Positions 46,363 through 62,166 of a stretch of DNA of 64,000 nt are shown one piece after another. The stretch's first letter is position 1. Every line of letters starts with the position of its first letter. The notes beneath the pieces are model-generated. The model searched no databases. It saw only the letters and a list, made by a program, of their open reading frames with translations, and was not told the DNA's origin. The translations under genes were made by a program, and so were the position numbers. Origin of the DNA: a virus (Duplodnaviria; Caudoviricetes). The stretch spans positions 60,934-124,933 of the IMG/VR virus record IMGVR_UViG_3300027205_000173; one strand, 5' to 3'.

Positions 46363-47844
46363 ATGACCCTGATTGATACTGGTGGGAAAAAACCAGATAC
46401 GCCGACAATTGGTACTGCTTCACATTCTGGAAGCGTATTAACTATTAGCGTACCCTTTACTGCCCCAACATATGCGGGCAAGGGGACCATCTCTTCATAT
46501 ACGGTCACTTCTTCTGGGGGACATACTGGCAGTGGGGCATCTAGCCCTATATCTGTCAGTGGTCTGACTTCAGGAACCGCGTATACGTTCACAGTTATAG
46601 CAACAACCAATACTGGAGTTGTATCAGACTCTTCTAGTGCATCTAACTCGGTGACGGCTCTAACAACCCCAGCAAACGTAACTGGATTAACGACATCACG
46701 GCCATCGTCTGGCAATATTGGGGTTAGTTGGACTGCAGTGAGTGCTGACAATGCTGGTCGTGGTGGTGCTGCGAGCGTAACTTACAGTGTTTATTATGGG
46801 ACTACCTCAAGCCCAACGACGTTGTACACGACGACAGCCTCCACTTCTACCACTATCCCCCTTACCGCTGGAACTTCATATTGGTTCAAGGTAGTAACAA
46901 ATAACTCGTCATTTTCTAGTGCTGGCACAACGACTGCAACTTCAACCCTCTGCCTCGCTACACCTACAAACGCAACAAACGTTGCAATCACCAATACCAA
47001 TGGAACATCGGATTCCGCCGACCAAACATCATCAGTGACAGGTCGCTTCACGGTGACATGGACTGCTGCCGCCGGAGGTGGTGAAACACCATCGTATGAC
47101 ATTTATTATGGAACAACGGCAAGCCCAACAACATTTTGGGTCAATACAGGTGGAACTACTGCAACTGTAACTGGTCTTACAACTGGAACATCATATTGGG
47201 CAAAAGTAACTACGAAAAACACTTCGTTCACTGCGAGTGGAACAGTTTCGTCAAATAGCGTTATTCCAGTCAAGCAACCAAATCAAATCACTACTGGATT
47301 CAATGCATCAGCAGATGACGCTCAAATTTTTATCACTTTAGATTCCGGTTCTAGGCTTACAACCGCCAGTCATTTTGGTGGATTTATAGGTACTGGTACA
47401 GGCTATAAAATTTACACTTCTACAAATAATGTAAACTTTACTCTTGCAATTAATGCAAACTATTCAACTTACGAACTTGACCCATTTGATGCACTTAATG
47501 GTTCAGGCCAGACAGTCACCATCACTGGCCTAACTAATGGAACCGCTTACTACATAACTATCAATAGTTATAACAACTTTTATGAACGTACTGGGTCATA
47601 CGCCAATAGCGGAGCAACCGTAACACCGGTAGCGCCACCATATTTTCCACCATTCTTCCCGCCATTTTTCCCGCCATTTTTCCCGCCATATTTCCCGCCA
47701 TATTTCCCACCATTCTTCCCGCCATTTTTCCCGCCATTTTTCCCGCCCTTCTTCCCGCCCTTCTTCCCGCCATTTTTCCCGCCATTCTTCCCGCCATTTT
47801 TCCCGCCATTCTTCCCGCCCTTCTTCCCACCTCAATTTAAATAG
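46363..47844 (+). CDS. fibronectin type III repeat protein with C-terminal (PPFF)17 tail
   Basis: FnIII motifs (SGLTSGTAYTFTV, GLTTGTSYW, GLTNGTAYY) followed by PP(F/Y)F repeats. Confidence 0.85.
   Translation: MTLIDTGGKKPDTPTIGTASHSGSVLTISVPFTAPTYAGKGTISSYTVTSSGGHTGSGASSPISVSGLTSGTAYTFTVIATTNTGVVSDSSSASNSVTALTTPANVTGLTTSRPSSGNIGVSWTAVSADNAGRGGAASVTYSVYYGTTSSPTTLYTTTASTSTTIPLTAGTSYWFKVVTNNSSFSSAGTTTATSTLCLATPTNATNVAITNTNGTSDSADQTSSVTGRFTVTWTAAAGGGETPSYDIYYGTTASPTTFWVNTGGTTATVTGLTTGTSYWAKVTTKNTSFTASGTVSSNSVIPVKQPNQITTGFNASADDAQIFITLDSGSRLTTASHFGGFIGTGTGYKIYTSTNNVNFTLAINANYSTYELDPFDALNGSGQTVTITGLTNGTAYYITINSYNNFYERTGSYANSGATVTPVAPPYFPPFFPPFFPPFFPPYFPPYFPPFFPPFFPPFFPPFFPPFFPPFFPPFFPPFFPPFFPPFFPPQFK
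47635..47838 (+). repeat. 12-nt tandem repeat x17 encoding PP(F/Y/Q)F
   Basis: CCR-CCN-TWY-TTY units; variation is almost all synonymous or F to Y. Confidence 0.95.
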
Positions 47845-47852
47845 GATAAAAT

Positions 47853-48470
47853 TTGAACTCATTAGTTGAACCCGGATATTTTGGTTTAAATAAAGATTCC
47901 ATCATTGTTATTAGAAATTTTGTTGAGCCAGAACATTTAAAGACTGTACAAAAATTCCTACCAACAATCAATGAATGGATGGACCCAGGTGAAAGTCAAT
48001 ATTCCGAAAATGGAACATGCCTCTATAATGCCGACTACTGGCGCAACAGGCAATGCGGTGGGGAAATTATTCAAAAATTAAACAGTAATATTTATAAAAT
48101 TATTGAATTTTATATTGATAAAATGCAAAAAGTGTTAACAGAAAAATTCTCTGTCCAACTATCAAGTAGGCCACCAGTTCTCATCAAATGGACGCCAGGC
48201 ACAGAGCAAAAACCGCATGCCGATAAACAATTGAACGATGGCTCACCAAACCCGTTTCCTGATTATGATTTAAATTCGCTTATTTATTACAATGACAATT
48301 TTGAGGGTGGCGAATTATATTACCCAGAACATGACATTGTTATAAAACCAGAACCAGGCTTGGCAGTTGCCCACCCAGGTGATATACATTTTCTACATGG
48401 TGTGAAACGTATTATTTCTGGCGAAAGATGGACTACGCCATCTTTTTATACAGTGAAGGAATTTATATGA
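47853..48470 (+). CDS. Fe(II)/2OG dioxygenase, prolyl-hydroxylase-like
   Basis: HAD..YYNDNFEGGELYY..HGVKRI.SGERW. Confidence 0.88.
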   Translation: MNSLVEPGYFGLNKDSIIVIRNFVEPEHLKTVQKFLPTINEWMDPGESQYSENGTCLYNADYWRNRQCGGEIIQKLNSNIYKIIEFYIDKMQKVLTEKFSVQLSSRPPVLIKWTPGTEQKPHADKQLNDGSPNPFPDYDLNSLIYYNDNFEGGELYYPEHDIVIKPEPGLAVAHPGDIHFLHGVKRIISGERWTTPSFYTVKEFI

Positions 48471-49039
48471 AATTGTTAAAACACAAAAATTTTACAATTA
48501 TTTTTGATTTTTTGACAGAACATGAAATTGCTATATTTTCAAAATACTTTTTAAATGTTAAATGGCAAGAGTCGCATGGGGATAAACATTTTTCAAATAA
48601 TATTACCTCGTCTGATATTGGAGAAATCGCGTCCAAAGTACAGGGCAGATTGAAGTCAACAATACAAAATATTTATTCATGTATTTTAAGTGACGAGACT
48701 CTTGGTACTTTTGTTAAATATCGACATGGTCACGGACTGCCTCTTCACTATGACGCAATGACAGTAGATGATATAACGGGTGAGAAAACAATAAATAAAA
48801 CATTTAGTGGATGTACGACGACTGACATGACGTCAATACTTTATTTAAAAAATGATTCCATAGGTGGACTAATAAGTTTTCCAAATTTAGATATTACCTA
48901 CTATCCGCTGAAAGGCTCCGTAATCATATTCCCATCATTCAAGGAATATGAACACGAAGTATCTCCCGTAACAAGCGGTGACAGGATTATAACTACAACT
49001 TTTTGGCATGTGTTTGATGATACGCAAAACAAAATTTAA
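48467..49039 (+). CDS. Fe(II)/2OG dioxygenase, prolyl-hydroxylase-like
   Basis: HYD..ILYL..GGLISF..HEVSPVTSGDR. Confidence 0.88.
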   Translation: MKLLKHKNFTIIFDFLTEHEIAIFSKYFLNVKWQESHGDKHFSNNITSSDIGEIASKVQGRLKSTIQNIYSCILSDETLGTFVKYRHGHGLPLHYDAMTVDDITGEKTINKTFSGCTTTDMTSILYLKNDSIGGLISFPNLDITYYPLKGSVIIFPSFKEYEHEVSPVTSGDRIITTTFWHVFDDTQNKI

Positions 49040-49571
49040 AAATATTACTATTATCAACAATTTAATTATTCCGCAAGATATTGCCAAATTGCGCACATAC
49101 ATTGATTGTTCTCCTCTTCAGAAGGAAGAAAATAATCCTAATACATTTATCAACGTACAAGATAGCGAATGCAATTCCATACTGTCAAAGGCTCAACAAT
49201 TACTTAAAAGCAATATTGAGGAAGATTTTGACACATTAGTAAGCGACGAAGGAATAGGTACGGTAGTGAAGTTCTCTATAGGTTGGGAACTTCCATATCA
49301 CTGCGACCAATGGTCAAACCTGCCCACATACGGGGGCGCTCCGAAGCGTGATATAAGTTCGATAATCTATTTGAGTGATGATTTCAAGGGTGGCGAATTA
49401 GTTTTCCCTGACCTGGGCATATTCATTCAGCCTGTGGCTGGGTCCGCAATCTATTTTGCGGGTACCGAGGAATATATGCATCAGGTAACGCCATTACTTT
49501 CCGGAACAAGATTGACATGCACTGGTTTTTGGGGTAATCTCTCGGGGTATGACGATGTTTCAATACCCTGA
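49017..49571 (+). CDS. Fe(II)/2OG dioxygenase, prolyl-hydroxylase-like
   Basis: HCD..IYLSDDFKGGELVF..HQVTPLLSGTR. Confidence 0.88.
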   Translation: MIRKTKFKNITIINNLIIPQDIAKLRTYIDCSPLQKEENNPNTFINVQDSECNSILSKAQQLLKSNIEEDFDTLVSDEGIGTVVKFSIGWELPYHCDQWSNLPTYGGAPKRDISSIIYLSDDFKGGELVFPDLGIFIQPVAGSAIYFAGTEEYMHQVTPLLSGTRLTCTGFWGNLSGYDDVSIP

Positions 49572-50316
49572 ACCGCTACCATTCCGTTTTGAAAAACATT
49601 CGGTAGGTGTCCCAGAACTAGGAATACGCCTATACAGGAGTGTTTTGCCGCCTGCGGCAATGATTCCTGAGCGCCTCGAAAAAACTTTAGCGAATAGCAG
49701 TCACCCCTATTTCCGCTGGCACGATTCACTCGTTGGAGAGGGAGTGAAGATGCCCGAGTACAGAGATTGTGTTGATTTTAAATACGACAAAAACTACGAC
49801 GATAAAACTCCACCTGAATTCAGGGACGTAATCGATGTTTACTATACGGTTGCCGATGTTCAGAATGAATGTTTACGTGATTATCAATCCGAGTACAACA
49901 TCAACATGACCTACATGGAGGCAATTAATTTTGTCAAGTATACCGCTGGTCAACATTTCAATGTCCATACTGACCATGGTTTTTCTTATGTATGCACGGT
50001 GTCATCAGTGATGTATCTCAATGACTCCTATGACGGCGGGGAGTTGTGGTTTCCAAAACTTGACATAAAAATTACGCCCGAATATGGGGATTTGGTATTT
50101 TTTCCTTCCACTTACATTTACGCACATGCTTCAATGCCTGTAACTTCGGGGGTGAAGTATTCCGCCGTAACAATGTATGACTACAATGACGATACGCATA
50201 AGTATGGTGGATTCACTCGTCAATTCGGGCAGACAAACAATCAGCCTTACGAGCCTTCAATGTCCAACTCTATTATCATTGGTCCGATTACTCCAACTGA
50301 GGGTGTCTCCATATGA
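49549..50316 (+). CDS. Fe(II)/2OG dioxygenase
   Basis: HTD..YLNDSYDGGELWF..FPS..HASMPVTSGVK. Confidence 0.88.
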   Translation: MTMFQYPEPLPFRFEKHSVGVPELGIRLYRSVLPPAAMIPERLEKTLANSSHPYFRWHDSLVGEGVKMPEYRDCVDFKYDKNYDDKTPPEFRDVIDVYYTVADVQNECLRDYQSEYNINMTYMEAINFVKYTAGQHFNVHTDHGFSYVCTVSSVMYLNDSYDGGELWFPKLDIKITPEYGDLVFFPSTYIYAHASMPVTSGVKYSAVTMYDYNDDTHKYGGFTRQFGQTNNQPYEPSMSNSIIIGPITPTEGVSI

Positions 50317-51038
50317 CTGAAATGACATTGACTAGAACGCATCAACTTTCTCCGAAAATAAAACAATCACGATTAAAGCGCGACTGGATGGACGATACGT
50401 ATAATAAACATGCTTATCGATGTTTGCCATTAAGTGCAGCAAATGTTAACGGCTGGGAAATAATCTTACAAAAAGAAATTGTTGCTATTTGGGATGGCGG
50501 AATGTCTGTCCCTAGAATTATTTCGGATGATTCATTTAATGGTAGAACTATCGCCAATTGCAACAAAATTGGGATGATTGATATCCATCTTGGATGGGCA
50601 TTCGGTACGGAGCAAGGTTTTGACACCGTTGTTACTGGTTCCCCTAATTTTTTTATTGATGGACTAGAACCACTGACCGCATTGATACCGAGTAGTTGGT
50701 GGCCTGATGAAGTGCAGATGACATGGAGATTCACTACGCCCGGCAAAGAAGTTATTTTACCCGAAGGAATGCCTTTTGCATTTTTTTATATTCAACCTTC
50801 TCATCTTCAAGAAGACGTTAATTTCAAAATGAAAAATCTTTGGGATGACAACGAACTTATTCAAAAAAGAATGTCATATAGTGATGCTAAGATGAAAAAA
50901 CAAATAGATGAGCCATGGACTTGGATGAATGGCATCCGAACTGGACTCAATGAACGTGGAGAGCAAATAGGTCCACGCCATGATAGTTTGGTGCAACTGG
51001 CTGAACCAGAAATATCCGAGGTCTATAATGTTGATTGA
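50313..51038 (+). CDS. DUF6065 family protein
   Basis: RDWMDDT..HAYRCLPLSAANVNGWEI..GSPN..MTWRFT.PG. Confidence 0.8.
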   Translation: MTEMTLTRTHQLSPKIKQSRLKRDWMDDTYNKHAYRCLPLSAANVNGWEIILQKEIVAIWDGGMSVPRIISDDSFNGRTIANCNKIGMIDIHLGWAFGTEQGFDTVVTGSPNFFIDGLEPLTALIPSSWWPDEVQMTWRFTTPGKEVILPEGMPFAFFYIQPSHLQEDVNFKMKNLWDDNELIQKRMSYSDAKMKKQIDEPWTWMNGIRTGLNERGEQIGPRHDSLVQLAEPEISEVYNVD

Positions 51039-51336
51039 TTCAATTTCTACTTTCAAAATCACTGCATTTACGCCGCTAGGTGATGAAGATTTTCATATTT
51101 CACTAATTGACAATGGTGGAGTTGTGGGCGGGAGGATATGGAATGATAAGGGGGAAATTAGTTTCACTGATTCAAGCAAAGAAAATAACTCCTTAGAGTG
51201 GAGTATTCCTATAGAAACACCCTTTGAAACAATCCTTAAATTCAATGTTTTCATATCTGTAGAGGAAAATCGAATGAGCGGACGCGTTGTTGTTGGCGAT
51301 TATGGTTCCGTGGCATTTCAAGGGTTTGGTGAATGA
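51028..51336 (+). CDS. small beta-rich hypothetical protein
   Basis: TPLG..LEW...TPF..MSG.V..G.YG...F.G; overlaps the DUF6065 stop. Confidence 0.6.
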   Translation: MLIDSISTFKITAFTPLGDEDFHISLIDNGGVVGGRIWNDKGEISFTDSSKENNSLEWSIPIETPFETILKFNVFISVEENRMSGRVVVGDYGSVAFQGFGE

Positions 51337-51337
51337 A

Positions 51338-51967
51338 ATGTCTTATGACGAAAATAACCTCTATAAAGTAGGTATGTCCTCAATCGATGGTGAGCCAGAT
51401 TTTTTGAGTCAATTTCATGGAAAAGTAACACTATTCGTCAATATTGCATCCAAATGCGGGTATCAACCAAAATGCAGTAATTTTTGGTCTTATGCCAGAA
51501 GTTTACGACAATTTAAACAACTACAAATCGTGCATGACGAATTTAAGGACCGAGGTTTCAGCGTTGTGGGTGTCCCTTGTAACCAATTTGGGAAGATGGA
51601 ACCCTGCCCCAACGATGAAATTTCATCATTCATAAAAAAATCATATGAATTTGTTAATTTCCCTATTTCTGAGAAAATTGATGTTAATGGTCCAAACGAG
51701 CATCCGCTATATTCCATCATTAAAGGAAAAGAAAAACGCAATAAATCTGATTCCATGGCAGACAATAGTGATAAAGCATTTGCAGGACGAAATGTAGAAG
51801 GTGCCGCCATGGCGCGAATCCCGAGCAATTGGGAGAAATTTATTGTTGGCCGAAGCGGTACGGTGATTGCTAGATTCAATTGGCAGGCAATGCCGCTGGA
51901 TAAGGAACCTTTAACTACGGGTGAAAGTTGGACAATCCGGGAAGCGATTGACGAAATACTTGGATAA
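51338..51967 (+). CDS. glutathione peroxidase-family protein (Cys-type, divergent active site)
   Basis: GKVTLFVNIASKCG, VGVPCNQFG, KIDVNG..HPLY, NWEKFIVGRSG. Confidence 0.85.
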   Translation: MSYDENNLYKVGMSSIDGEPDFLSQFHGKVTLFVNIASKCGYQPKCSNFWSYARSLRQFKQLQIVHDEFKDRGFSVVGVPCNQFGKMEPCPNDEISSFIKKSYEFVNFPISEKIDVNGPNEHPLYSIIKGKEKRNKSDSMADNSDKAFAGRNVEGAAMARIPSNWEKFIVGRSGTVIARFNWQAMPLDKEPLTTGESWTIREAIDEILG

Positions 51968-51974
51968 TGCGGAG

Positions 51975-52031: not shown

Positions 52032-52880
52032 ATGAAGAGTTTGTCAAATCAAATAAAAATCAAAGCACTCAGGGAAAAAATTGCCGAATTTGAGGCGACG
52101 CTGTACGGGTCGCTTGCTGGAAATGGTTTTGATTTAGATTTATTTGAATCCGAAGATGATGTCATTAGCCACATTGGTTCAATGTTTAGTCTATTTACTA
52201 CGCCAGCAATACGATTTAGATATGGGTTCAGAGTATGGAAAAGTATCGCCATTTCAGAACAAGCCGACCATTGGATGGCCCCAACCTGTTCTTCGACTGA
52301 CACTCACATGAATATCCCAATGGACGAACTTTATGGTCGTACCGAATTCAAGGACATCCTTATGGATACTGGTTTCTTGGAAAAAATCGTAAATCATGTT
52401 GTCATTTACAACATTCCTGGTGGAGCCTCAATTATCTACAATGAATTGACGCCAGGCTCAGAACACCTAATTAAGCAGTATCAGATGATTCATCCATATC
52501 CTGGAGCGCCTTCGTTGCATGAATTGTTCAAACTATTACTCGAATGGCAATGGGCCTACATATACGCAGAGAGCCGTGAACCAATGGCTGAAGTGGCGAA
52601 CGAATTGCTTACTAGCGTAGGTCTACATATAGACCAGCAAAATTCCGTCGAACCAGTCAAATCACTCATGCAACTTCCCGATATGCAGGTCGCCCAATAT
52701 TTCAAAACTGGCGTATGTTCGCTTCCTGAAATCGCACCACCAGAACCAGTAGAATTCAAACTATGGGCAGTGAAAATTGGAATTTTCAATTTACACAAAA
52801 AAGAATTTGCCGACATGTACGAGACCTGCTTACGAATAAAAATTATGAAGACAAAATTATCCTCATTGGAGAATGAATAA
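52032..52880 (+). CDS. hypothetical protein
   Basis: GGAGG RBS; 282 aa. Confidence 0.75.
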   Translation: MKSLSNQIKIKALREKIAEFEATLYGSLAGNGFDLDLFESEDDVISHIGSMFSLFTTPAIRFRYGFRVWKSIAISEQADHWMAPTCSSTDTHMNIPMDELYGRTEFKDILMDTGFLEKIVNHVVIYNIPGGASIIYNELTPGSEHLIKQYQMIHPYPGAPSLHELFKLLLEWQWAYIYAESREPMAEVANELLTSVGLHIDQQNSVEPVKSLMQLPDMQVAQYFKTGVCSLPEIAPPEPVEFKLWAVKIGIFNLHKKEFADMYETCLRIKIMKTKLSSLENE

Positions 52881-52883
52881 ACC

Positions 52884-55383: not shown

Positions 55384-55394
55384 GAATTTTCAGT

Positions 55395-56228
55395 ATGAAA
55401 AATCTAGGTAATGGAATTGTCTTATTTAATGAATCATTTAATGTAGATGGTGCCATTCTTGATTTTTTGAATTCCCTACAAGAGGTTGAGTTTAAAAATA
55501 ATTACACATACGAATTCAATGATGATAATTCTGTTAAGTGTTTGGTTAATAAAAGCGGGCACAGGTTCCGGCAAGAGGATATATCGAAGTCCTGTGTTCG
55601 GTTGAGCAACTATTACAACTACCCGAATTCTGAAGAATGCATAAATTTTTTTAATAACTGCGATTCTGCCGTTTATAAGGCGCTTCTTGAGTATTTGGAA
55701 ATTTTTCCCATGCTATTACCTTGCATATGGTGGAAGACCAAAGGACACCCAATTTTTTATCCAGAAGGCTCAGAGCAGGGCCTTCATTGTGATAATGACA
55801 TTAACTACAGTCCAGGCTTTGAACCGAGTATGCAATTGGGCTCCAGGCATGTCCTTGCTGCAATGTGTTATTTAAATGATGATTTCAGTGGTGGCGAAAT
55901 AGTTTTTCCATATGCTGGCGTTACACATTCCCCGAAAGCAGGAGATGTTCTTTTGTTTCCAGCAAACTATATTTGTGCACATTATGTTGCAACAGTTACG
56001 TCTGGAGACAGGTATGCATATCTTCAATACTTCGGACAGGGCTCCTCATCTCCCGAATATGGGATATCAGTATGTGATAACTCGCCATATATTCATAGTG
56101 GACAAGTATGGATGAATGATATTTTTTCTGATTACAAAAACCATATAGAAATGAAATATCAACCTAGTGAATCTGGTGATTTTCTTCGTCCCCTACAACG
56201 CAAATTCCATAGTTCTGAAATAAGGTGA
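55395..56228 (+). CDS. Fe(II)/2OG dioxygenase (WW..GH subgroup)
   Basis: WWKTKGH, HCD, YLNDDFSGGE, FPANY..HYV..SGDRY. Confidence 0.88.
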   Translation: MKNLGNGIVLFNESFNVDGAILDFLNSLQEVEFKNNYTYEFNDDNSVKCLVNKSGHRFRQEDISKSCVRLSNYYNYPNSEECINFFNNCDSAVYKALLEYLEIFPMLLPCIWWKTKGHPIFYPEGSEQGLHCDNDINYSPGFEPSMQLGSRHVLAAMCYLNDDFSGGEIVFPYAGVTHSPKAGDVLLFPANYICAHYVATVTSGDRYAYLQYFGQGSSSPEYGISVCDNSPYIHSGQVWMNDIFSDYKNHIEMKYQPSESGDFLRPLQRKFHSSEIR

Positions 56229-56232
56229 ATAC

Positions 56233-57120
56233 ATGGAGATAATTAACAATGATGTTGAACTAGAACATCTTGGTAGTGGTGTCTGCATATTTAGGAATGC
56301 TTTTTCTGCCAATTGGGAAGCCATATTTCAGACCGCAACAGAATTAGTAGACCTCGAACATGCCGACATGTATCAGCAGACTATTCACCCAGAAACTGGG
56401 GAAATGGCATACATTAATAAAAGCGGATATTTATTTACTGGTGAATCAATGGATGCAATGCCTCGACGCGGTTCCGTAATTCATCGTGATTCTCGTCCAC
56501 AAATTGCCAAAATGCTTCAGGATATTGAAACTATAAAAGATTCGTATTTGTTAAAATATTTTGAACGTTTTCCACTTGCGTATAATTGCATATGGTGGAA
56601 AGTCAAAGGACACCTAGTTTCATATTCGCCAGGCGTTTATCTTGGGAGTCACTCCGACATAAGTGCCGAATATGTATATGGAGTACATCAAACGTCGCAG
56701 GAGTTGGCACTCAGAAACGTTATAACATCAATCACGTATCTCAATTCATCGAATGACGAGAATTCGTTAGTGGACGGTGAATTTTCTGGCGGGGAACACA
56801 TATTTAATTATTTAGGAATAACATACTCTCCGCGTGCTGGCGACATCATGATGTTCCCATCCAATTATATGGCTGCACATGAGGTGCGTCCTATCGTATC
56901 TGGAAGACGTATCTCTTATCTTGGTTGGTATTCACAAGGGACACCCAACCAAGAGGTTGGCGAGAGCGTATGTGACCCAAAAATAAATCCAGAAGGTGCT
57001 CGAATCAGCACGAATGTATATATGCCAACGCTTCGTCATGATTATAGGGAGTTCCTGAAGTCGCGAGGGTATGACGAATCATCGGAACAATTTAATGCAA
57101 CAAGACTGGTTGGCGAATAA
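56233..57120 (+). CDS. Fe(II)/2OG dioxygenase (WW..GH subgroup)
   Basis: WWKVKGH, HSD, YLN..GGE, FPSNY..HEV..SGRR. Confidence 0.88.
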   Translation: MEIINNDVELEHLGSGVCIFRNAFSANWEAIFQTATELVDLEHADMYQQTIHPETGEMAYINKSGYLFTGESMDAMPRRGSVIHRDSRPQIAKMLQDIETIKDSYLLKYFERFPLAYNCIWWKVKGHLVSYSPGVYLGSHSDISAEYVYGVHQTSQELALRNVITSITYLNSSNDENSLVDGEFSGGEHIFNYLGITYSPRAGDIMMFPSNYMAAHEVRPIVSGRRISYLGWYSQGTPNQEVGESVCDPKINPEGARISTNVYMPTLRHDYREFLKSRGYDESSEQFNATRLVGE

Positions 57121-57914
57121 TGAAATCAACACACATAGGTATGGGTGTCGTTGTCTGTGAAGATGTTATAGATATAGACCAAGAGTTTTTGAAAAAATAC
57201 ATATCCGCACTGCGTGGTGCTAAAGAAAATACTTTTACATATATCGAAGAAGAAGGAATTACATACGCAGTCAATGCTACTGGTTTTAAGTTTAGTATTG
57301 AGGACATTTCTATTGCTCCTCAAAGATTTCTCAATACACGTTCACCTGAAGCACTAGGACAATTAGTAAATGAAGCAAATGAATTTATAAATAAATTAGA
57401 AAACGCAATTTATGACGCCCTGATTGAATATTGTCGCCATTTTCCTGATGCAGCAACGACGGCATGGTGGAGACCCCTGGGGCATCTGGCAGGATATGAA
57501 AATGGTCAAAAAATTGGTCCTCATTGCGATGACCAAGTTCCTTATGAGTGGGGTCAGAAAACGGGAAATCAAGTATCAATGCATAATAGTACGAGCATAA
57601 ACTTATATTTAAATGATTGCGTTGAATCAACCGAAGAACTTAATGAAACAAACTTCATAGGTGGAGAACTGTGCTTCCCAAATATCCCCTATAAATGGAA
57701 GCCAAAGTCCGGTTCGGTCATTGCCTATCCTTCAAATTATGTTGGAAGACATGAAGTGTTACCCGTAACCCATGGTCAGAGGTATGCCTATCTAAGCATG
57801 GCGTGTTACGGGACATCATTCACATCGGAAGAAATTGTCGGTCAAGACAATCCACATAGGATTTGGATGCCGAAACTTATTGAGGATTCACGTCGTCAGC
57901 CAACAAAACTATAG
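57120..57914 (+). CDS. Fe(II)/2OG dioxygenase (WW..GH subgroup)
   Basis: WWRPLGH, HCD, YLND..GGEL, YPSNY..HEV..GQRY. Confidence 0.88.
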   Translation: MKSTHIGMGVVVCEDVIDIDQEFLKKYISALRGAKENTFTYIEEEGITYAVNATGFKFSIEDISIAPQRFLNTRSPEALGQLVNEANEFINKLENAIYDALIEYCRHFPDAATTAWWRPLGHLAGYENGQKIGPHCDDQVPYEWGQKTGNQVSMHNSTSINLYLNDCVESTEELNETNFIGGELCFPNIPYKWKPKSGSVIAYPSNYVGRHEVLPVTHGQRYAYLSMACYGTSFTSEEIVGQDNPHRIWMPKLIEDSRRQPTKL

Positions 57915-58848
57915 GTTTTTCAGACCGATAATCAAATCCCAAATTTTGAATATATATTTCATATTCTTCTTTTGTCGGAGCCCCCCAATATCCAATAATA
58001 TCTCCATCAAGTATTTGCTTAACAATTGATGATTTATCATTTATGGATGCATTGAAATCAACGCACGGCCTATTATTTGTTAATGGTTTGGAATATATTT
58101 TTTTCCAAGAATCATCCGTTCCATCAACGATTGATTCATGTCGGCCAAATGAATACAGACAACTGTCACTGACAGAAAAAAACCTCCATCCTCGCGCACT
58201 TGCTCGCAGGGCGAGGACGTGTTCTTCTCCATAAAAAGCAATACGCGGGTCGGGCATAACTTCTTTAAAAAGGTCCAATTTTGCAAACACAAAACCCCCC
58301 GAAGTAAGATAATGCTCATACTCCCCGCCTGCCGCCATTCCACCGATTATTTCAGATTCATATAATCCATAAGGATTCCCCAACACCAATGGCGCCCCAA
58401 GCGTGTCATGTTTATGAATTTCTCCTATCTTATTTTTCGTATACCATTTTGGTCGATTGCTTATAGCGGGCTTTTCATATTTCACAGAAAGTTTGGATAT
58501 CTCGCGCAATAAATTCATATCCCAATTTTTATCAAAAATTGTATGAGCATCAATTTGCAGAGCATAATCTTGATTTTCGTGGAGCATAAATGCATTGAGT
58601 CTGCCCAAACCGAGACCAAGTGGATATTTGTAGTCAATGTTTACTTTTTTTACATTCTTGTAGGAGTCAGTATTTGAAAATTGACCATCAGTTCTTTGGT
58701 CAATTATTCCAAAATAAATACGACTAGGAAATCTTGCGTTCTCATATGCGCTCTTGACCGTCATGCAAATATCGCTTTCATCAACACCACATGTAAAAAC
58801 AAAAATTGTCCTAAGATGCTTATTTATTTCCGAAGATGCATCACTCAT
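57877..58848 (-). CDS. GT60-like glycosyltransferase (Skp1-hydroxyproline GlcNAc transferase Gnt1 family)
   Basis: TIFV..TVKSAYENARFPSRIYFGIIDQ, GLGLGR, DYALQIDAHTIFDKNWD, SGGFVF..EV.PDP..FYGEE..LALRA..GW. Confidence 0.78.
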   Translation of the reverse strand: MSDASSEINKHLRTIFVFTCGVDESDICMTVKSAYENARFPSRIYFGIIDQRTDGQFSNTDSYKNVKKVNIDYKYPLGLGLGRLNAFMLHENQDYALQIDAHTIFDKNWDMNLLREISKLSVKYEKPAISNRPKWYTKNKIGEIHKHDTLGAPLVLGNPYGLYESEIIGGMAAGGEYEHYLTSGGFVFAKLDLFKEVMPDPRIAFYGEEHVLALRASARGWRFFSVSDSCLYSFGRHESIVDGTDDSWKKIYSKPLTNNRPCVDFNASINDKSSIVKQILDGDIIGYWGAPTKEEYEIYIQNLGFDYRSEKPIVLLADDVNPQ

Positions 58849-59524
58849 AGAAAAATTCACCTGTACTTAGCGCCAATGGCGGAGAGTCTTTATGCCATAC
58901 GTTGATGACCATTACTTGACGCACGCCATTGGCCGCTGGGGTGGTTCCATGGAGGCGCCTGCCAGCATCAAAAGAGATGAGGCGATTCGGTACATATGCT
59001 AAGCGTTCCATATATTCAGGAGAAGATAACAAGGGGGCTATGTTGTCTCGTTCTAGGGCATTTTCTGGAGAACCTTTGATTTTGTTTTCATGCATTTCCA
59101 AAAATCCACCGTCACTACAGGATGTGAATCCATACCAAATTGCACCGATAACAGGAGCATTGAATGTCTTATCGCGGGCGTAGGCAAATGTATCTTCATC
59201 AACGTGAACTTTCAAATATTGACCAGGCTTGAATGTTCTGCACCAATACTCAAAACCACATATTTCAGATTCTGGGAAACCCAACAAACCAGTATCACGC
59301 CAGACGGCTTCAATTACTTGTTTTCTTAGGGTGTTGGCCGGGCTGCTCCACCATCCATCCCAGAACATATATGGGGCACTGCATGTAGATTCTCCGGAAT
59401 GAAAATAATTATTGTATTCTCCAATATTTTCCAAATCTCCCATATTTTCGGGAAAAAAATTAAAGTCATTTTTAATAGCATTAACCAAATTGGTATTTTT
59501 TATAAAATCGTCACAAACAAACAT
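58841..59524 (-). CDS. Fe(II)/2OG dioxygenase
   Basis: GFEYW, HVDED, GG.LE, PNRLISFDAG..HG..R.VMVINVW. Confidence 0.8.
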   Translation of the reverse strand: MFVCDDFIKNTNLVNAIKNDFNFFPENMGDLENIGEYNNYFHSGESTCSAPYMFWDGWWSSPANTLRKQVIEAVWRDTGLLGFPESEICGFEYWCRTFKPGQYLKVHVDEDTFAYARDKTFNAPVIGAIWYGFTSCSDGGFLEMHENKIKGSPENALERDNIAPLLSSPEYMERLAYVPNRLISFDAGRRLHGTTPAANGVRQVMVINVWHKDSPPLALSTGEFFYE

Positions 59525-60119
59525 CTATTCCCCCGTTATTACCAATTAATCTATATGGTGACCAATCTGGAACTATTTTCGTATTCGGTTCTAACGGGCA
59601 AAGATTGGCGCTGATAACGATTCGCGATTCATCAGACATGTGACGGGATGTCATATGAGAAATATACGAATTGAATATGATGAGCATTCCTTCTTTGGGT
59701 TTAATCGATATTGATTGTTCTATTGTGTTGCAATGTGTTAAAGAAAATACGATTTCCGCAGAACCTTCCGGAACGGATGGATAGTAGACAATAGAGTAAA
59801 ATTCTGACGGATAAAGATGAGAATTTGATTTATGAGAGTGCATCCCGACTGACTCGCCACGATTTAAAATTAAACCCCAAATTGACTCAACGGAGTATTC
59901 TCGATTCAAAACACTGCTTACAACGGATGATATTTTTTTGCATAAGTCGTAGATTTCGGGAACACCCGGAAGAACAATATCTTCAAAATATGTATGCGGA
60001 AAATTTACGGCATCAGGTTTTTGATTGCTAGACAAAATAATTTTAGAAATCAACCGATTATCAATATCGGCAACGTCTAATACGTATGCATTTAAATTAA
60101 TGAGTGGCACTACGTCCAT
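59511..60119 (-). CDS. putative Fe(II)/2OG dioxygenase (2OG-FeII_Oxy_5/TIGR02466-like)
   Basis: W..I..G....HSH, SIVYY, PKEG.LIIFNSYISH..RIVISAN. Confidence 0.8.
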   Translation of the reverse strand: MDVVPLINLNAYVLDVADIDNRLISKIILSSNQKPDAVNFPHTYFEDIVLPGVPEIYDLCKKISSVVSSVLNREYSVESIWGLILNRGESVGMHSHKSNSHLYPSEFYSIVYYPSVPEGSAEIVFSLTHCNTIEQSISIKPKEGMLIIFNSYISHMTSRHMSDESRIVISANLCPLEPNTKIVPDWSPYRLIGNNGGIDVCL

Positions 60120-60457: not shown

Positions 60458-60469
60458 TAGTCATTCCTT

Positions 60470-61555
60470 CTAGTCTTCTTCAACTAGAGGGATGCTATTG
60501 AGTTCGTACCAACCCTTGCCCCAGAGGGTTTGTAGCCGCGTAAAATACTTTTCATACATAAGCCCCACCGCATCGAGGCCGTAGCGGTCCTTGGAGTACT
60601 GGCTTATTGCTTTACGGTCAAGGTTTTTTGCCGCCTCCGCAGCATCCATAAATTCTTGCAAAGTATGACACCTGAAGCCAGTGACGCCATCAATGACAGT
60701 CTCCGTAAACGCCCCCCAGTCGGTTGAGATAACAGGAGAACCACATGCCATTGCTTCTATAGCAACGGTACCAAAAGGTTCAACATAGATAGTTGGGGTA
60801 AATGTAGCGATTGCCCCACCCATGAGTTTTGAGCGTTCTTCAGTCCCAACTACGCCCACGTATTCACCGTAAGAAGGTGGAGTTCCCTGACCAGCAATCA
60901 CTAGACGCTTGCCGAGCGCCTTGCATACATCTACAGCAACCTGATAACCCTTACGCTCCGTCAGTCGACCTATGTATAGGTAGTAGTCGTCGGGCTCTTC
61001 TTGTAGGGTAAAGTCATCAATGTCGATATAACTTGGGATAACGGTGTCAAAGAATTTGCCGTCAAGAGTGTGAGGGTCGTTGACTTTAGACCCATAACAG
61101 GCATGCATCCATGCGTAGGACTCAAACACCTTATAGTTAGCAAACCACCCGCCATATCCAATCCCAAACTCCACGCTCAGTTCGTTGGGGAAGGCATCAG
61201 CAATTGGCTTAGATGCATATCCAGTTATGAGACAGATGAAATCCTTGTGTTCTAGGCGTTCTTGAATACCCTTGATGACGTTGCCGTTGAACTCAACCCA
61301 ATGAGGTAGGTTCCAGTCGAATGACGCGGCGGAGTAGTGGTTGTTGCCCACGGCCTTTAGTCGTTGCTCCTCAGTAATGCACATGATGTGCTCATCGCAA
61401 GGTGCTTCATTGAACTCGCCACCATAAAGAAATACGGTGTGCCCGAGGTTCTTCATCATGATTGCAAATTTCCGCACCTTCTCTGTATAAGCGCAGGCAG
61501 TGAAGGTTTCGGTCGTATTTGTATGCGGCAAACTTACTAAGTGAAAACGCATCAT
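60470..61555 (-). CDS. GT4-family (GT-B) glycosyltransferase
   Basis: LYIGRLTERKG, EPFGTVAIEAMACGSPVISTDWGAFTETVIDGVTGF. Confidence 0.9.
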   Translation of the reverse strand: MMRFHLVSLPHTNTTETFTACAYTEKVRKFAIMMKNLGHTVFLYGGEFNEAPCDEHIMCITEEQRLKAVGNNHYSAASFDWNLPHWVEFNGNVIKGIQERLEHKDFICLITGYASKPIADAFPNELSVEFGIGYGGWFANYKVFESYAWMHACYGSKVNDPHTLDGKFFDTVIPSYIDIDDFTLQEEPDDYYLYIGRLTERKGYQVAVDVCKALGKRLVIAGQGTPPSYGEYVGVVGTEERSKLMGGAIATFTPTIYVEPFGTVAIEAMACGSPVISTDWGAFTETVIDGVTGFRCHTLQEFMDAAEAAKNLDRKAISQYSKDRYGLDAVGLMYEKYFTRLQTLWGKGWYELNSIPLVEED

Positions 61556-62166
61556 TTCCCCTTGAATACCGCTAAAACAACACTATCCACACAGGAATGA
61601 ACCTTTGATGTTGCATACATCTCGTAAGTAAGACCAGTTTTGTCAAAGTATTCTTTTAATTCAGATGAACGCTGTTCCCAACTATCCATATTGTAGTTCT
61701 CGTAAAGAATGTCCTCTATAAGGTAAATGCCATCATCTTCAAGGAAATCAAACATGTTCTCAAAAGTGGAAATTGTCAAATCAAGAACATGCGAAGCGTC
61801 ATCCAGGATGATGTCAACCTTATTGCCGATTGAGTTCTTTAAATCTAAAAAGGTTTCTGGGCGTGACTGGTCAACGAAAAATGTTTGAATATTGCCACTC
61901 TCGAAAAGTAGATGAGACTTTATATCTGCCCCATAAATTTTTGTTTCAGGAAACATTTGCGTCCAAGCAAAGAGGTCAGTATTATGAGTATCTCCAAGAA
62001 AAAGACCAATTTCCAAGAATGCTGTTGGCGACATATCGGATAAAAGGTGTGAGTATATGTCCTCGTACCCATGATACGAAGATTTGTCTGAACCCACGGC
62101 GGTCATCCAAAAAGCAAGTTTTTGGGAGAACTCTTCGTTATATGAATATTGTGTGTGTAAAATCAT
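61552..62166 (-). CDS. class I SAM methyltransferase, sugar O-methyltransferase-like
   Basis: SDK..HGY..Y, FLEIG, IYGADI, VDQS, DIILDDASH, GIYLIED. Confidence 0.8.
   Translation of the reverse strand: MILHTQYSYNEEFSQKLAFWMTAVGSDKSSYHGYEDIYSHLLSDMSPTAFLEIGLFLGDTHNTDLFAWTQMFPETKIYGADIKSHLLFESGNIQTFFVDQSRPETFLDLKNSIGNKVDIILDDASHVLDLTISTFENMFDFLEDDGIYLIEDILYENYNMDSWEQRSSELKEYFDKTGLTYEMYATSKVHSCVDSVVLAVFKGK

What the first reader, a model, noticed from the sequence alone, without database searches (positions are those of the whole stretch)
46363..62166. Candidate phage pathway for hydroxylation, glycosylation and methylation of virion appendages
Seen: an FnIII protein ending in (PP[F/Y]F)17 is followed 8 nt after its stop by a coupled run of HxD..H..R/K Fe(II)/2OG dioxygenases (ten in the island). 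The island also has DUF6065, a GPx, two methyltransferase folds, a GT60-like and a GT4 enzyme, and it sits between fibre genes. Known: GT60/Gnt1 adds GlcNAc to hydroxyproline made by a prolyl 4-hydroxylase (Dictyostelium Skp1), and Hyp-glycosylated Pro repeats define plant extensins. Inference: the phage encodes both substrate and enzymes for a Pro-to-Hyp-to-glycan-to-O-methyl pathway on its fibres, for adhesion, rigidity or shielding. I know of no described phage system with this architecture.
Basis: partly seen in the sequence, partly recalled or inferred. Interest (0 to 1): 0.92.

Follow-up and report, generated by a model that had tools for sequence, protein, structure and literature searches.

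The report
Phage Pro-Phe tail with hydroxylase battery
An uncultured lake phage encodes, next to its tail fibres, a protein ending in 17 Pro-Pro-Phe-Phe units and then ten collagen-type hydroxylase-like enzymes; this pairing recurs in hundreds of uncultured phage contigs, so the phage probably hydroxylates its own fibre-associated protein, though no chemistry has been shown.

Summary
P0001 (46363-47844) is an FN3 protein ending in 16 PP[F/Y]F units, then PPQF and K. Eight nt later a run of genes begins. It includes ten Fe(II)/2OG oxygenases with intact HxD..H..R/K motifs, DUF6065, a GPx-fold protein and an O-methyltransferase-fold protein. A GT60-like enzyme, a GT4 enzyme and a weak methyltransferase lie on the minus strand.

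- **Tail and oxygenases are tightly linked.** 43 of 49 PPFF-bearing viral records carry PF13640, mostly 6-11 copies. Only 5 of 50 control records do (p = 7e-16).
- **The link holds in reverse.** Of about 57 loci picked by DUF6065 with enough upstream DNA, 54 have a PPFF gene just upstream. Gene order is conserved.
- **The cassette crosses phage backbones** and is absent from cultured phages.
- **GT60 is optional.** It occurs in 2 of 49 records, although this enzyme's nearest relatives sit inside cassettes.
- **GT4 and the terminal methyltransferase never co-occur with the tail.**
- **The neighbouring GXT collagen is not a conserved partner.**

ox4 resembles Bacillus P4H and the ox1 family resembles P3H1. 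DUF6065 has a dUTPase fold, like the protein in the Syn9 dioxygenase array described by Iyer et al. (2010).

Hydroxylation of the PPFF tail is likely but unproven. This scan noted the same cassette in other genomes.

The parts
39693..46325 (+). 2210-aa collagen-like tail fibre. It has 876 residues of G-X-Y, with Y = Thr in 269 of 292 triplets and X = Pro in 65. Its C-terminal domain recurs upstream of the cassette in other contigs. It is context, not a conserved substrate.
   Evidence: PF01391, 376 bits. Composition. Homologues of this protein were hit in 126 loci. Collagen-like ORFs occur in only 6 of 76 and 12 of 120 cassette loci. The C-terminal domain matches PHROG virion and tail families.
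46363..47844 (+). FN3 protein P0001 with a C-terminal (PP[F/Y]F)16-PPQF-K tail (tail DNA 47635-47841). Proposed substrate.
   Evidence: In-frame PPFF tails occur in more than 120 IMG/VR contigs, and 79 of 156 such ORFs end in FK.
47853..48470 (+). ox1: 2OG/Fe(II) oxygenase, P3H1/P4H-like, with H122/D124/H182/R192.
   Evidence: PF13640. The family profile A5 hits P3H1 (8k0e) at 7e-8 and B. anthracis P4H at 1e-5. Motifs.
48428..49039 (+). ox2: 2OG/Fe(II) oxygenase with H107/D109/H176/R186. It is absent in a related strain.
   Evidence: PF13640, E 6e-10. Motifs. A contig in run X16 skips 48461-49023.
49008..49571 (+). ox3: 2OG/Fe(II) oxygenase with H98/D100/H158/R168.
   Evidence: PF13640, E 3e-10. 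Motifs.
49549..50316 (+). ox4: P4H-like oxygenase, the only one with Lys at +10 (H140/D142/H193/K203). It is the most constant oxygenase of the cassette.
   Evidence: PF13640, E 4.5e-13. It hits B. anthracis P4H (3itq/5iax) at E 4e-8, and PBCV-1 P4H (5c5t) and P3H1 more weakly. Synteny.
50313..51038 (+). DUF6065 protein with a dUTPase-like beta-barrel fold and an invariant KHAYxCxP motif (C37). It is the signature gene of the cassette. Its role is unknown.
   Evidence: PF19541, E 1e-40. The model has pLDDT 76. Foldseek top hits are dUTPases (E 2e-5), and VIA-align gives Z 10.7. At least 585 viral contigs carry a homologue.
51287..51967 (+). GPx-fold protein with a non-canonical active site (the real start may be at 51338).
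   Evidence: PF00255, E 3e-29. Across 46 homologues the canonical peroxidatic Cys column is Cys in only 11. An inserted Cys (C63) is present in 40, and the catalytic Gln is Met in 33.
52032..52880 (+). Unknown 282-aa protein, rich in conserved His, Cys and Trp. It is found in the closest cassette relatives only.
   Evidence: No Pfam, PHROG or Atlas lead. Seven homologues were found. hhalign shows no relation to the oxygenases.
52884..53630 (+). Three small ORFs (72, 79 and 101 aa). Two of them recur in cassettes.
   Evidence: phmmer hits in 7 and 4 loci, and more in the DUF6065-selected loci. No family was assigned.
53590..54363 (+). Class I methyltransferase-fold protein, most like cation-dependent catechol-type O-methyltransferases. 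A conserved cassette member.
   Evidence: The model has pLDDT 75. Foldseek hits 8xdy, 4ymg and 3duw at E about 1e-7 and TM about 0.5. The Atlas feature search also points to O-methyltransferases. No Pfam hit, and the SAM motif I is atypical.
54376..57914 (+). ox5-ox8: four longer (264-335 aa) paralogous oxygenases, each with an N-terminal extension, a WW..H..Y motif and an HxD..H..R triad.
   Evidence: PF13640 in each. Motifs. No significant PDB sequence hit. The block ox5-ox8 is syntenic in many loci.
57877..58860 (-). GT60-like (PF11397) glycosyltransferase with an invariant DxH motif (D103, H105). An optional accessory.
   Evidence: Present in 2 of 49 PPFF records. Its nearest relatives lie inside cassettes. 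No PDB sequence hit.
58841..59524 (-). Divergent tenth oxygenase with H107/D109/H192/R202.
   Evidence: Forty-nine homologues, syntenic with the methyltransferase-fold gene and ox9.
59511..60119 (-). ox9: PF13759-type 2OG oxygenase.
   Evidence: It recurs in cassettes.
60470..62220 (-). GT4 glycosyltransferase (60470-61555) and a weak methyltransferase-like ORF (61552-62220). They are window-specific neighbours and are not linked to the cassette elsewhere.
   Evidence: PF00534, E 2e-18; PF13847, E 0.003, below the cut-off. No homologue in the PPFF-selected loci L001-L120; later locus sets were not searched for them.

Best explanation
Windows 46363-57914 (+) and 58841-60119 (-) are one copy of a widespread phage cassette.

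Gene content. A tail-fibre-locus protein ending in a (Pro-Pro-Phe/Tyr-Phe)n-x-F-K tail is encoded directly upstream of a battery of prolyl-hydroxylase-like Fe(II)/2OG oxygenases. A DUF6065 (dUTPase-fold) protein, a GPx-fold protein and an O-methyltransferase-fold protein accompany them.

Most likely mechanism (inferred, not shown).
1. During late infection the oxygenases hydroxylate the tail's prolines after translation. ox4 is P4H-like and ox1 is P3H-like. The other paralogues may handle the second proline, other ring positions or the aromatic residues.
2. This turns an extremely hydrophobic Pro/Phe stretch into a Hyp-rich polyproline-II rod on a fibre-associated protein.
3. In this phage and a minority of relatives, a GT60-like enzyme may then add a sugar to Hyp.
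4. The GT4 and the terminal methyltransferase are not part of the conserved unit. If they act on the virion at all, the Thr-rich GXT collagen fibre is as likely a target.
For: Shown here.
- In-frame PPFF tails occur in more than 120 IMG/VR contigs.
- 43 of 49 such records carry PF13640, mostly 6-11 copies, even on 6-19 kb fragments. Only 5 of 50 control aquatic viral records do, with 1-2 copies each. Fisher p = 7e-16. For records under 20 kb the split is 16 of 20 against 1 of 37, p = 1e-9.
- Within 15 kb of a PPFF tail, 82 of 120 loci have oxygenase homologues and 57 have DUF6065. The order is conserved: PPFF, then oxygenases, then DUF6065, then more oxygenases.
- In reverse, DUF6065 occurs in at least 585 viral contigs. 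Of the DUF6065-selected loci with more than 4 kb upstream, all but three (L153, L154, L178) have a PPFF gene just upstream.
- Linkage persists down to 23% DUF6065 identity and across phage backbones. Complete 210-kb and 268-kb records lack a homologue of this window's tail sheath, while 140-170-kb records share it at about 51% identity.
- ox4 matches B. anthracis P4H at E 4e-8 and keeps the P4H-type Lys. The ox1 family matches P3H1 at 7e-8. Catalytic triads are at least 90% conserved in nine families, ox1-ox8 and 58841-59524.
- The surroundings are fibre and virion genes.
- Long PPFF tails are almost absent from 185,579 prokaryote genomes. The exceptions are MAG contigs that carry the cassette.

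Established knowledge. PBCV-1 P4H hydroxylates Pro-Ala-Pro-Lys repeats (PMC3634087).
Against: - No chemistry or virion proteomics exists. Enzyme-substrate pairing is inferred from gene linkage only.
- ox5-ox8 have no significant similarity to any characterised hydroxylase.
- Ten paralogues for a four-residue repeat is unexplained.
- DUF6065, the GPx-fold protein (canonical catalytic Cys often lost) and the methyltransferase-fold protein have no assigned step.
- Related tandem arrays in cyanophage Syn9 lack any Pro-rich repeat gene nearby and were proposed to make secondary metabolites (PMC2938197).
- Whether the PPFF protein is in the virion is unknown.
Confidence: 0.6

Rival explanations
1. 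The full first-reader pathway operates in this phage. Pro is converted to Hyp, GT60 then adds GlcNAc, GT4 extends the glycan, and a methyltransferase O-methylates the sugar, all on the PPFF tail.
For: GT60-like, GT4 and methyltransferase-like genes abut the cassette. The nearest GT60 relatives lie inside cassettes: L224 at 60% identity, L225-227 and L237 at 39%. Others lie in compact PPFF > oxygenase > GT60 modules: L056, L067, L087, L098, L231-233 and L235. GT60 Gnt1 is specific for Hyp on Skp1 (PMC6939170).
Against: PF11397 occurs in only 2 of 49 PPFF records. 63 of 80 GT60-selected viral loci have no oxygenase within 8 kb. GT4 and the 61552-62220 ORF have no homologue in the PPFF-selected loci L001-L120, and that ORF is below the Pfam cut-off. 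GT60 also contains Thr-directed enzymes (PMC6939170), and a fibre with 269 Thr at the Y position lies next door.
Confidence: 0.15
2. The oxygenases modify something other than the PPFF tail. Candidates are other fibre proteins (for example X-position Pro in the GPT collagen), host proteins or nucleic acids. On this reading the PPFF protein is only a syntenic neighbour in a fibre-locus island.
For: Two of the three cassettes that lack PPFF (L153, L178) have a fibre gene in the upstream slot, with a short GPT collagen-like stretch and the conserved fibre C-terminal domain. In cyanophage S-SCSM1 two oxygenase arrays flank tail-fibre genes, and Syn9's array follows its fibre genes without any PPFF.
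Against: Collagen-like ORFs accompany only 6 of 76 and 12 of 120 cassette loci, whereas PPFF accompanies about 95%. The PPFF gene stays immediately upstream through rearrangements and across backbones.
Confidence: 0.15
3. The cassette is a small-molecule or RiPP-like biosynthetic cluster. Either the PPFF tail is a precursor that is modified and released, or the array makes a secondary metabolite, as proposed for Syn9.
For: Iyer et al. proposed metabolite synthesis for the Syn9 array, which has ten dioxygenases, a dUTPase-fold protein with a conserved Cys and halogenases (PMC2938197). Many cassettes encode a roughly 120-aa protein with a 60-aa N-terminal part followed by PPFF repeats, which looks like a leader plus core. 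A catechol-type O-methyltransferase fold is typical of tailoring enzymes.
Against: No protease, cyclase, transporter, NRPS or halogenase was found in the island. The tails are fused to FN3 domains or sit inside 700-1500-aa structural-type proteins. The locus is a fibre module.
Confidence: 0.07
4. The oxygenases serve general infection physiology, such as lowering 2OG levels or AlkB-like DNA repair, as suggested for cyanophage 2OG-Fe(II) oxygenases.
For: This is the literature proposal for cyanophage homologues (PMC3037559). The closest cultured-phage relatives are cyanophage and OM43-phage oxygenases at less than 30% identity.
Against: It does not explain ten diverged paralogues or their strict linkage to a PPFF gene. 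The best structural relatives are protein prolyl hydroxylases, not AlkB.
Confidence: 0.03

Closest known systems
Chlorovirus PBCV-1 prolyl 4-hydroxylase (PDB 5c5t) with Pro-rich repeat substrates (Eriksson et al. 1999, as cited in PMC3634087)
   Same: A virus-encoded P4H-type 2OG oxygenase is paired with proline-rich repeat sequences. The enzyme hydroxylates Pro-Ala-Pro-Lys repeats. ox4 and the ox1 family hit 5c5t weakly (E 0.05 and 0.025).
   Different: PBCV-1 is a eukaryotic algal virus with one enzyme. Here a phage has ten paralogues. The repeat is Pro-Pro-Phe-Phe rather than PAPK. The substrate gene is immediately adjacent and co-inherited. Extra DUF6065, GPx-fold and O-methyltransferase-fold partners are present.
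Tandem dioxygenase array of cyanophage Syn9 (gp41-gp54), described by Iyer, Abhiman, de Souza and Aravind 2010 (PMC2938197)
   Same: Both have about ten tandem dioxygenases of several families plus a dUTPase-fold protein with a conserved cysteine, placed right after tail-fibre genes. DUF6065 here has that fold and an invariant Cys.
   Different: Syn9 has tryptophan halogenases and a JmjC/MINA member and no Pro-rich repeat gene. The window has neither halogenase nor JmjC. Sequence similarity is marginal: only gp48, gp45, gp50 and gp60 hit the cassette HMMs, and nothing hits DUF6065. The proposed function there was secondary-metabolite synthesis.
Bacillus anthracis P4H (3itq/5iax) and collagen P3H1 (8k0e)
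   Same: These are the best solved-structure relatives by sequence. They share the HxD..H triad, and ox4 shares the 2OG-binding Lys at +10.
   Different: Identity is low and alignments cover the catalytic core only. Their substrates are G-X-Y collagen peptides, whereas the conserved partner here has no Gly.
Skp1 PhyA/Gnt1 (GT60) hydroxyproline glycosylation of Dictyostelium and Toxoplasma (PMC6939170)
   Same: A P4H-type enzyme is followed by a PF11397/GT60 glycosyltransferase. Compact PPFF > oxygenase > GT60 modules exist in some contigs.
   Different: The Skp1 pathway modifies a single Pro on a cytoplasmic regulator and is protist-specific. Here GT60 is optional (2 of 49 records), and most viral GT60-like genes are unlinked to oxygenases.
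Plant extensins and mussel foot proteins (from general knowledge)
   Same: Both are repetitive Pro/aromatic structural proteins whose function depends on Hyp, plus glycosylation in extensins, or diHyp and DOPA in mussel proteins.
   Different: No Ser-Hyp4 motif is present and no arabinosyltransferase or tyrosinase homologue was found. This is an analogy only.

Membership tests
Prolyl hydroxylase-type 2OG/Fe(II) oxygenases (PF13640, P4Hc-like) | Pfam PF13640 match above the curated cut-off | tested here: met
   Eight ORFs score 29.6-50.4 bits against a cut-off of 27. 58841-59524 scores only 17 bits.
Prolyl hydroxylase-type 2OG/Fe(II) oxygenases (PF13640, P4Hc-like) | HxD...H iron triad and a basic residue about 10 positions after the distal His for 2OG binding | tested here: met
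   All positions are at least 90% conserved across 20-61 homologues per family, for ox1-ox8 and 58841-59524. ox4 has Lys and the others Arg. ox9 was not resolved.
Prolyl hydroxylase-type 2OG/Fe(II) oxygenases (PF13640, P4Hc-like) | Significant sequence similarity to a biochemically characterised prolyl hydroxylase | tested here: inconclusive
   Met for ox4 (B. anthracis P4H, E 4e-8) and the ox1 family (P3H1, 7e-8). The ox5-ox8 profile has no hit below E 0.09.
Prolyl hydroxylase-type 2OG/Fe(II) oxygenases (PF13640, P4Hc-like) | Hydroxylation of peptidyl proline | not testable with these tools
CAZy GT60 / PF11397 (Gnt1-like) | PF11397 match above the cut-off | tested here: met
   78.1 bits against a cut-off of 21, covering profile positions 97-269 of 352.
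CAZy GT60 / PF11397 (Gnt1-like) | Conserved metal/nucleotide-sugar motif (DxH in place of DxD; recalled from memory for GT60) | tested here: met
   D103 and H105 (QIDAH) are invariant in six diverged viral homologues.
CAZy GT60 / PF11397 (Gnt1-like) | Hydroxyproline as acceptor, dependent on a partner P4H | tested here: inconclusive
   The nearest relatives are embedded in oxygenase cassettes. However, 63 of 80 viral GT60-like loci have no oxygenase within 8 kb, and only 2 of 49 PPFF records carry PF11397. The acceptor cannot be tested here.
Glutathione peroxidase (PF00255) | Pfam match above the cut-off | tested here: met
   101 bits against a cut-off of 27.
Glutathione peroxidase (PF00255) | Catalytic tetrad: peroxidatic Cys/Sec, Gln, Trp and Asn | tested here: not met
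   The window protein keeps Cys57. Across 46 cassette homologues that column is Cys in only 11. The catalytic Gln is Met in 33, and WNF reads H-N-Y or S-N-W. A different Cys (C63) is conserved in 40. It has the GPx fold but is probably not a canonical peroxidase.
DUF6065 (PF19541) | Pfam match above the cut-off | tested here: met
   140 bits against a cut-off of 26.6.
dUTPase | Trimeric dUTPase beta-barrel fold | tested here: met
   Foldseek E 2e-5 with target-normalised TM 0.6-0.7. VIA-align Z 10.7, and all 13 hits at Z of 8 or more are dUTPases or dUTPase-related proteins. The model pLDDT is 76. The oligomeric state was not tested.
dUTPase | The five conserved dUTPase sequence motifs (recalled from memory) | tested here: not met
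   The invariant residues are R23, W25, M26, T29, H33, A34, Y35, C37, P39, N44, G47, D61, N112, P154 and G220. They do not resemble the dUTPase motifs, and identity to dUTPases is 7-16%.
Collagen as a P4H substrate | G-X-Y repeats with Pro at Y, the position made into 4-Hyp | tested here: not met
   The G-X-Y repeats are real (PF01391, 376 bits). But Y is Thr in 269 of 292 triplets, and Pro occurs only at X, 65 times.
Syn9-type tandem dioxygenase cluster (Iyer et al. 2010) | Several dioxygenase families in tandem plus a dUTPase-fold protein with a conserved Cys | tested here: met
Syn9-type tandem dioxygenase cluster (Iyer et al. 2010) | Tryptophan halogenases and a JmjC/MINA-clade member | tested here: not met
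   No such Pfam family was found in any ORF of the island.
Cation-dependent O-methyltransferase (PF01596-like) | Class I SAM-methyltransferase fold closest to catechol-type O-methyltransferases | tested here: met
   Foldseek E about 1e-7 and TM about 0.5 to 8xdy, 4ymg, 3duw and 8c9t. Atlas feature hits agree.
Cation-dependent O-methyltransferase (PF01596-like) | Sequence-level family match and a canonical Gly-rich SAM motif | tested here: not met
   No Pfam hit up to E = 5. The PDB profile search gives only E 0.44. Only A57 and G59 are invariant where motif I is expected.

The most novel reading that the evidence does not exclude
Many aquatic phages build a heavily hydroxylated Pro-aromatic polymer on a fibre-associated protein, using up to a dozen dedicated oxygenases. 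In some lineages it is also glycosylated or O-methylated. It would be a phage counterpart of extensin or mussel-glue chemistry. The same logic, in which oxygenase arrays tailor repeat-bearing fibre proteins, would explain the long-unexplained 2OG-Fe(II) oxygenase genes of marine cyanophages. One example is S-SCSM1, whose short tail fibre carries RQPRxF repeats between two oxygenase arrays.
Probability: 0.35. Interest if true: 0.9.

Novelty: new variant of a known kind. Interest (0 to 1): 0.78.

Why it matters
Viral 2OG-Fe(II) oxygenases are among the most common "auxiliary" genes in aquatic phages. Their substrates have been guessed at for 15 years: DOM/2OG balance, DNA repair or secondary metabolites.

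Here the probable substrate is encoded next to the enzymes. It is chemically simple, a four-residue repeat. It is co-inherited with them in hundreds of contigs from several phage backbones. That turns the question into a direct assay of peptide, enzyme, Fe and 2OG followed by mass spectrometry.

If confirmed, it would be the first post-translational prolyl hydroxylation system of a bacteriophage. It would add a new class of virion-surface chemistry relevant to host adhesion. It would also supply a set of about ten diverged peptide hydroxylases with possibly different regio-selectivity. Finally, it would give DUF6065 a context.

Tried and rejected
- **Complex prediction** (ox4 alignment with residues 416-465 of P0001) was not available. 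No docking evidence either way.
- **Cultured phages.** A megablast of the island and tblastn of DUF6065 and GT60 against 50,697 GenBank phage records found nothing. The first related-loci run with the single GT60 protein also found nothing. An alignment was needed.
- **PDB sequence searches.** The GT60 profile gave no hit. The ox5-ox8 profile gave nothing below E 0.09. The methyltransferase-fold profile gave only E 0.44.
- **52032-52880.** No lead came from Pfam, PHROGs or the Atlas, whose own model has pLDDT 0.41. hhalign does not support the idea that it, or 53590-54363, is an oxygenase despite their H-I-D triplets.
- **Collagen as the conserved substrate.** Rejected on co-occurrence.
- **Host assignment.** MAG labels for cassette contigs disagree with each other: Verrucomicrobiales, Gammaproteobacteria, Acidibacter and Cyclobacteriaceae. 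These are probably binning artefacts. The host stays unknown.
- **RNA evidence.** One lake metatranscriptome holds a few 151-337-nt contigs on 48865-53090. It also holds a deep 1089-nt contig of another PPFF gene that overlaps only 40 nt here. DNA carry-over cannot be excluded, so expression is not shown.
- **PPFF records without PF13640.** Six of 49 records lack PF13640. In L016 and L040 the PPFF gene lies at or near a contig end. L003 has only three units, and L008 has an internal linker.

Full report
**Where the window lies**

The window is the last 64 kb of a 124,933-bp IMG/VR viral contig, estimated 84% complete. It encodes a contractile-tail phage. The 500-aa ORF at 16044-17546 matches tail sheath proteins of actinophages and some cyanophages at about 35% identity. 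Near-identical DNA occurs in about 20 aquatic metagenome runs, labelled lake, freshwater or "marine". No cultured phage in GenBank matches the island at DNA level.

**Checking the observation**

The tail:
- 46363-47844 translates to a 493-aa protein with FN3 domains (Pfam E 3.6e-15).
- Its C-terminus is APPYF-(PP[F/Y]F)15-PPQF-K. That is 16 strict units plus PPQF.
- The 17 DNA units form seven different 12-mers that differ at synonymous positions, so selection acts on the peptide.
- The next ORF starts 8 nt after the stop with TTG. Its N-terminus aligns from residue 3 with homologues.

The oxygenases:
- Pfam places eight ORFs in PF13640 and one in PF13759, all above the curated cut-offs.
- A tenth ORF, 58841-59524 on the minus strand, has a weak PF13640 hit (E 0.01).
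- That ORF also has hhalign probabilities of 84-86% to ox2 and ox3.
- Its H107/D109/H192/R202 set is fully conserved in 50 sequences.
- In nine families, ox1-ox8 and 58841-59524, the HxD..H triad and the basic residue ten positions after the distal His are at least 90% conserved. Only ox4 uses Lys there, as collagen-type P4Hs do.
- For ox9 the conserved H94/H96/H155/R166 were not resolved into a triad.

The other genes:
- DUF6065 (E 1e-40), GSHPx (E 3e-29), PF11397/GT60 (E 1e-21) and GT4 (E 2e-18) are confirmed.
- The methyltransferase call at 61552-62220 is below threshold (E 0.003).
- 53590-54363 has no Pfam hit. It folds (pLDDT 75) as a class I methyltransferase closest to cation-dependent catechol-type O-methyltransferases, in line with Atlas feature hits.
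- 52032-52880 remains unassigned.

**The decisive test: co-occurrence**

In nearly all of them the match is read in frame as a long PPFF/PPYF tail.
- The tails are often C-terminal, and 79 of 156 such ORFs end in F-K.
- They sit on FN3 proteins, on proteins of about 120 aa, or as linkers inside 700-1500-aa proteins.

Whole-record searches gave a clear split.
- PF13640 was found in 43 of 49 PPFF-bearing records, mostly with 6-11 copies. Fragments were included, for example 7 copies on 8.2 kb and 9 on 13.6 kb.
- In a control of 50 aquatic viral contigs, chosen for a GT60-like gene but lacking the cassette in the fetched locus, 5 had PF13640, with one or two copies each.
- Fisher's exact p = 7e-16. 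Restricted to records under 20 kb the split is 16 of 20 against 1 of 37, p = 1e-9.
- This control is not matched for phage lineage.

Within 15 kb of the tail:
- Oxygenase homologues occur in 82 of 120 loci, DUF6065 in 57 and the GPx-fold gene in 18.
- The order is conserved: PPFF, sometimes an FN3 gene, oxygenases, DUF6065, then more oxygenases.

The reverse test started from DUF6065.
- An alignment of DUF6065 homologues (A1) recovered at least 585 viral contigs.
- Of 76 new loci, 53 showed a PPFF ORF directly upstream. L210 has a short three-unit tail that my regular expression missed.
- Almost all the rest are cut within 3.5 kb upstream of DUF6065.
- Only L153, L154 and L178 have room for a PPFF gene and lack one.
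- The window's whole plus-strand order (PPFF, ox1-4, DUF6065, GPx-fold, small ORFs, methyltransferase-fold, ox5-8) is reproduced in many loci. The divergent oxygenase and ox9 are frequent members.

Linkage is not just shared ancestry of one phage.
- It persists while DUF6065 diverges to 23% identity.
- Complete records of 210 kb and 268 kb carry the cassette but have no homologue of this window's sheath.
- Complete 140-170-kb records share the sheath at about 51% identity.
- Several 80-90-kb, roughly 80%-complete records lack it.

Among one genome for each of 185,579 prokaryote species the pattern hit 22 places. Long tails were found only on MAG contigs that also carry the cassette.

**What is not conserved**

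- PF11397 occurs in 2 of 49 PPFF records, far from the tail in both.
- A GT60 alignment found 170 viral contigs. Of 80 loci fetched, 63 have no oxygenase within 8 kb.
- The window enzyme's closest relatives are nevertheless cassette members: L224 at 60% identity, and L225-227 and L237 at 39%.
- Several unrelated contexts show a compact PPFF protein > one or two oxygenases > GT60 module: L056, L067, L087, L098, L231-233 and L235. GT60 is therefore an optional add-on recruited by one subclade.
- GT4 and the 61552-62220 ORF have no homologue in the PPFF-selected loci L001-L120; later sets were not searched for them.
- The 2210-aa neighbour is a genuine collagen-like fibre. Its Y position is Thr in 269 of 292 triplets, with Pro only at X.
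- Collagen-like ORFs accompany only 6 of 76 and 12 of 120 cassette loci. The recurring element is that fibre's C-terminal domain, just upstream of the cassette.

**Enzyme identities**

- ox4's best solved relatives are B. anthracis P4H (E 4e-8), then PBCV-1 P4H and P3H1.
- The ox1 family profile hits P3H1 (7e-8), B. anthracis P4H (1e-5), PiuC, PBCV-1 P4H and LH3.
- The ox5-ox8 type has no significant solved relative.
- DUF6065 (model pLDDT 76) has a dUTPase-like barrel by two aligners: Foldseek E 2e-5 and VIA-align Z 10.7. It lacks dUTPase motifs and instead has an invariant R..WM..T...HAY.C.P segment.
- The GPx-fold family has largely lost the canonical peroxidatic Cys (Cys in 11 of 46) and the catalytic Gln. 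It conserves a different Cys, so "glutathione peroxidase" is a fold label only.

**Literature**

- No paper mentions DUF6065, and none describes PPFF repeats in phages.
- Iyer et al. [quoted passage not shown] They proposed secondary-metabolite synthesis (PMC2938197).
- That cluster follows Syn9's fibre genes. It has no Pro-rich repeat gene and only marginal similarity to the cassette HMMs.
- Sullivan et al. 2010 suggested 2OG modulation or DNA repair for cyanophage oxygenases (PMC3037559).
- PBCV-1 P4H hydroxylates Pro-Ala-Pro-Lys repeats (PMC3634087).
- GT60 Gnt1 is Hyp-specific on Skp1, but the family also holds a Thr-directed enzyme (PMC6939170).

**Mechanism**

Shown:
- The genes and their motifs.
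- The reciprocal, syntenic and cross-lineage linkage of the PPFF tail with the oxygenase/DUF6065 set.
- The fibre-locus position.

Inferred:
- The oxygenases hydroxylate the tail's prolines, with a P4H-like and a P3H-like enzyme for the two adjacent prolines.
- The remaining paralogues act on other positions or on the aromatic residues.
- The methyltransferase-fold, GPx-fold and DUF6065 proteins assist or further tailor the product.
- The product is a Hyp-rich polyproline-II rod displayed on or near the fibres.
- GT60 glycosylates Hyp in this phage.

I put the functional unit at about 0.85, prolyl hydroxylation of the tail at about 0.6, and the full glycan-plus-methyl pathway at about 0.15.

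**Novelty**

The kinds are known: viral P4H with Pro-repeat substrates, and tandem phage dioxygenase arrays with a dUTPase-fold protein. The PPFF substrate, its strict pairing with the array and the scale of its distribution are not in the searched literature.

Earlier notes of this scan report the same cassette in other genomes with similar conclusions. I re-derived the linkage independently here. One of those notes gave me the lead to the Iyer paper.

Noticed in passing
L304:3129-4394 (Synechococcus phage S-SCSM1, SSCSM1_245): In this cultured cyanophage two arrays of annotated 2OG-Fe(II) oxygenase genes (4 + 3) flank tail-fibre genes. The "short tail fiber protein" contains a stretch of about 250 residues of RQPRxF / RAPFNFR-type Pro/Arg/Phe repeats. 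It may be a parallel substrate-next-to-enzymes arrangement in a culturable system.
   Followed up: partly
window 51287-51967 and 45 homologues: The cassette's GPx-fold family mostly lacks the canonical peroxidatic Cys (Cys in 11 of 46) and the catalytic Gln (Met in 33 of 46). It conserves an inserted Cys (C63, 40 of 46) and C98 (31 of 46). Many cassettes carry two copies at fixed positions.
   Followed up: partly
window 48461-49023: A contig in lake metagenome run X16 joins 48461 to 49023 with 14 other letters between. A close strain therefore lacks ox2, and oxygenase copy number varies within the population.
   Followed up: no
window 47790-47829 (run X20, RNA): A 1089-nt contig of depth 82 in a lake metatranscriptome overlaps only the PPFF repeat. 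It continues into a different "...SNSVTT"-type upstream sequence. A related PPFF gene is therefore abundant in that RNA library. Short RNA contigs also lie on 48865-53090. DNA carry-over is not excluded.
   Followed up: no
window 45693-46322 (C-terminal domain of the 2210-aa fibre); L153:6482-7309, L178:6465-7280, L210:3121-6474: The fibre's C-terminal domain of about 130 residues (...[12 protein letters not shown]...GSGQTT...ATLIKRA..W...GDL) recurs as the last domain of the gene just upstream of the PPFF gene or cassette in many contigs. In L153 and L178, which lack PPFF, it directly abuts the first oxygenase.
   Followed up: partly
L008, L010, L026, L063, L067, L087, L099; L014, L097, L106: PPFF runs also occur as internal linkers in 750-1566-aa proteins, some with APTE repeats. 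In other proteins they are followed by short Cys-rich ends (...PPHFVGGGVCGYGC). Irregular PFF-PPFF variants form a second cassette type with the order PPFF > ox4 > ox4 > DUF6065 > ox1.
   Followed up: no
window 52032-52880: A 282-aa protein with many conserved His, Cys and Trp residues (H80, H122, H154, H163/E164, C86, C229, C266). It has no family, fold or Atlas lead and is present only in the closest cassette relatives.
   Followed up: partly
L228-L303: GT60-like (PF11397) genes occur in at least 170 IMG/VR contigs, mostly with no oxygenase nearby. No cultured phage record matched at E 1e-5. Their acceptor in phages is unknown.
   Followed up: no
window 30733-32796: A second fibre protein with a collagen triple-helix stretch and a C-terminal Peptidase_S74 (intramolecular chaperone) domain.
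   Followed up: no
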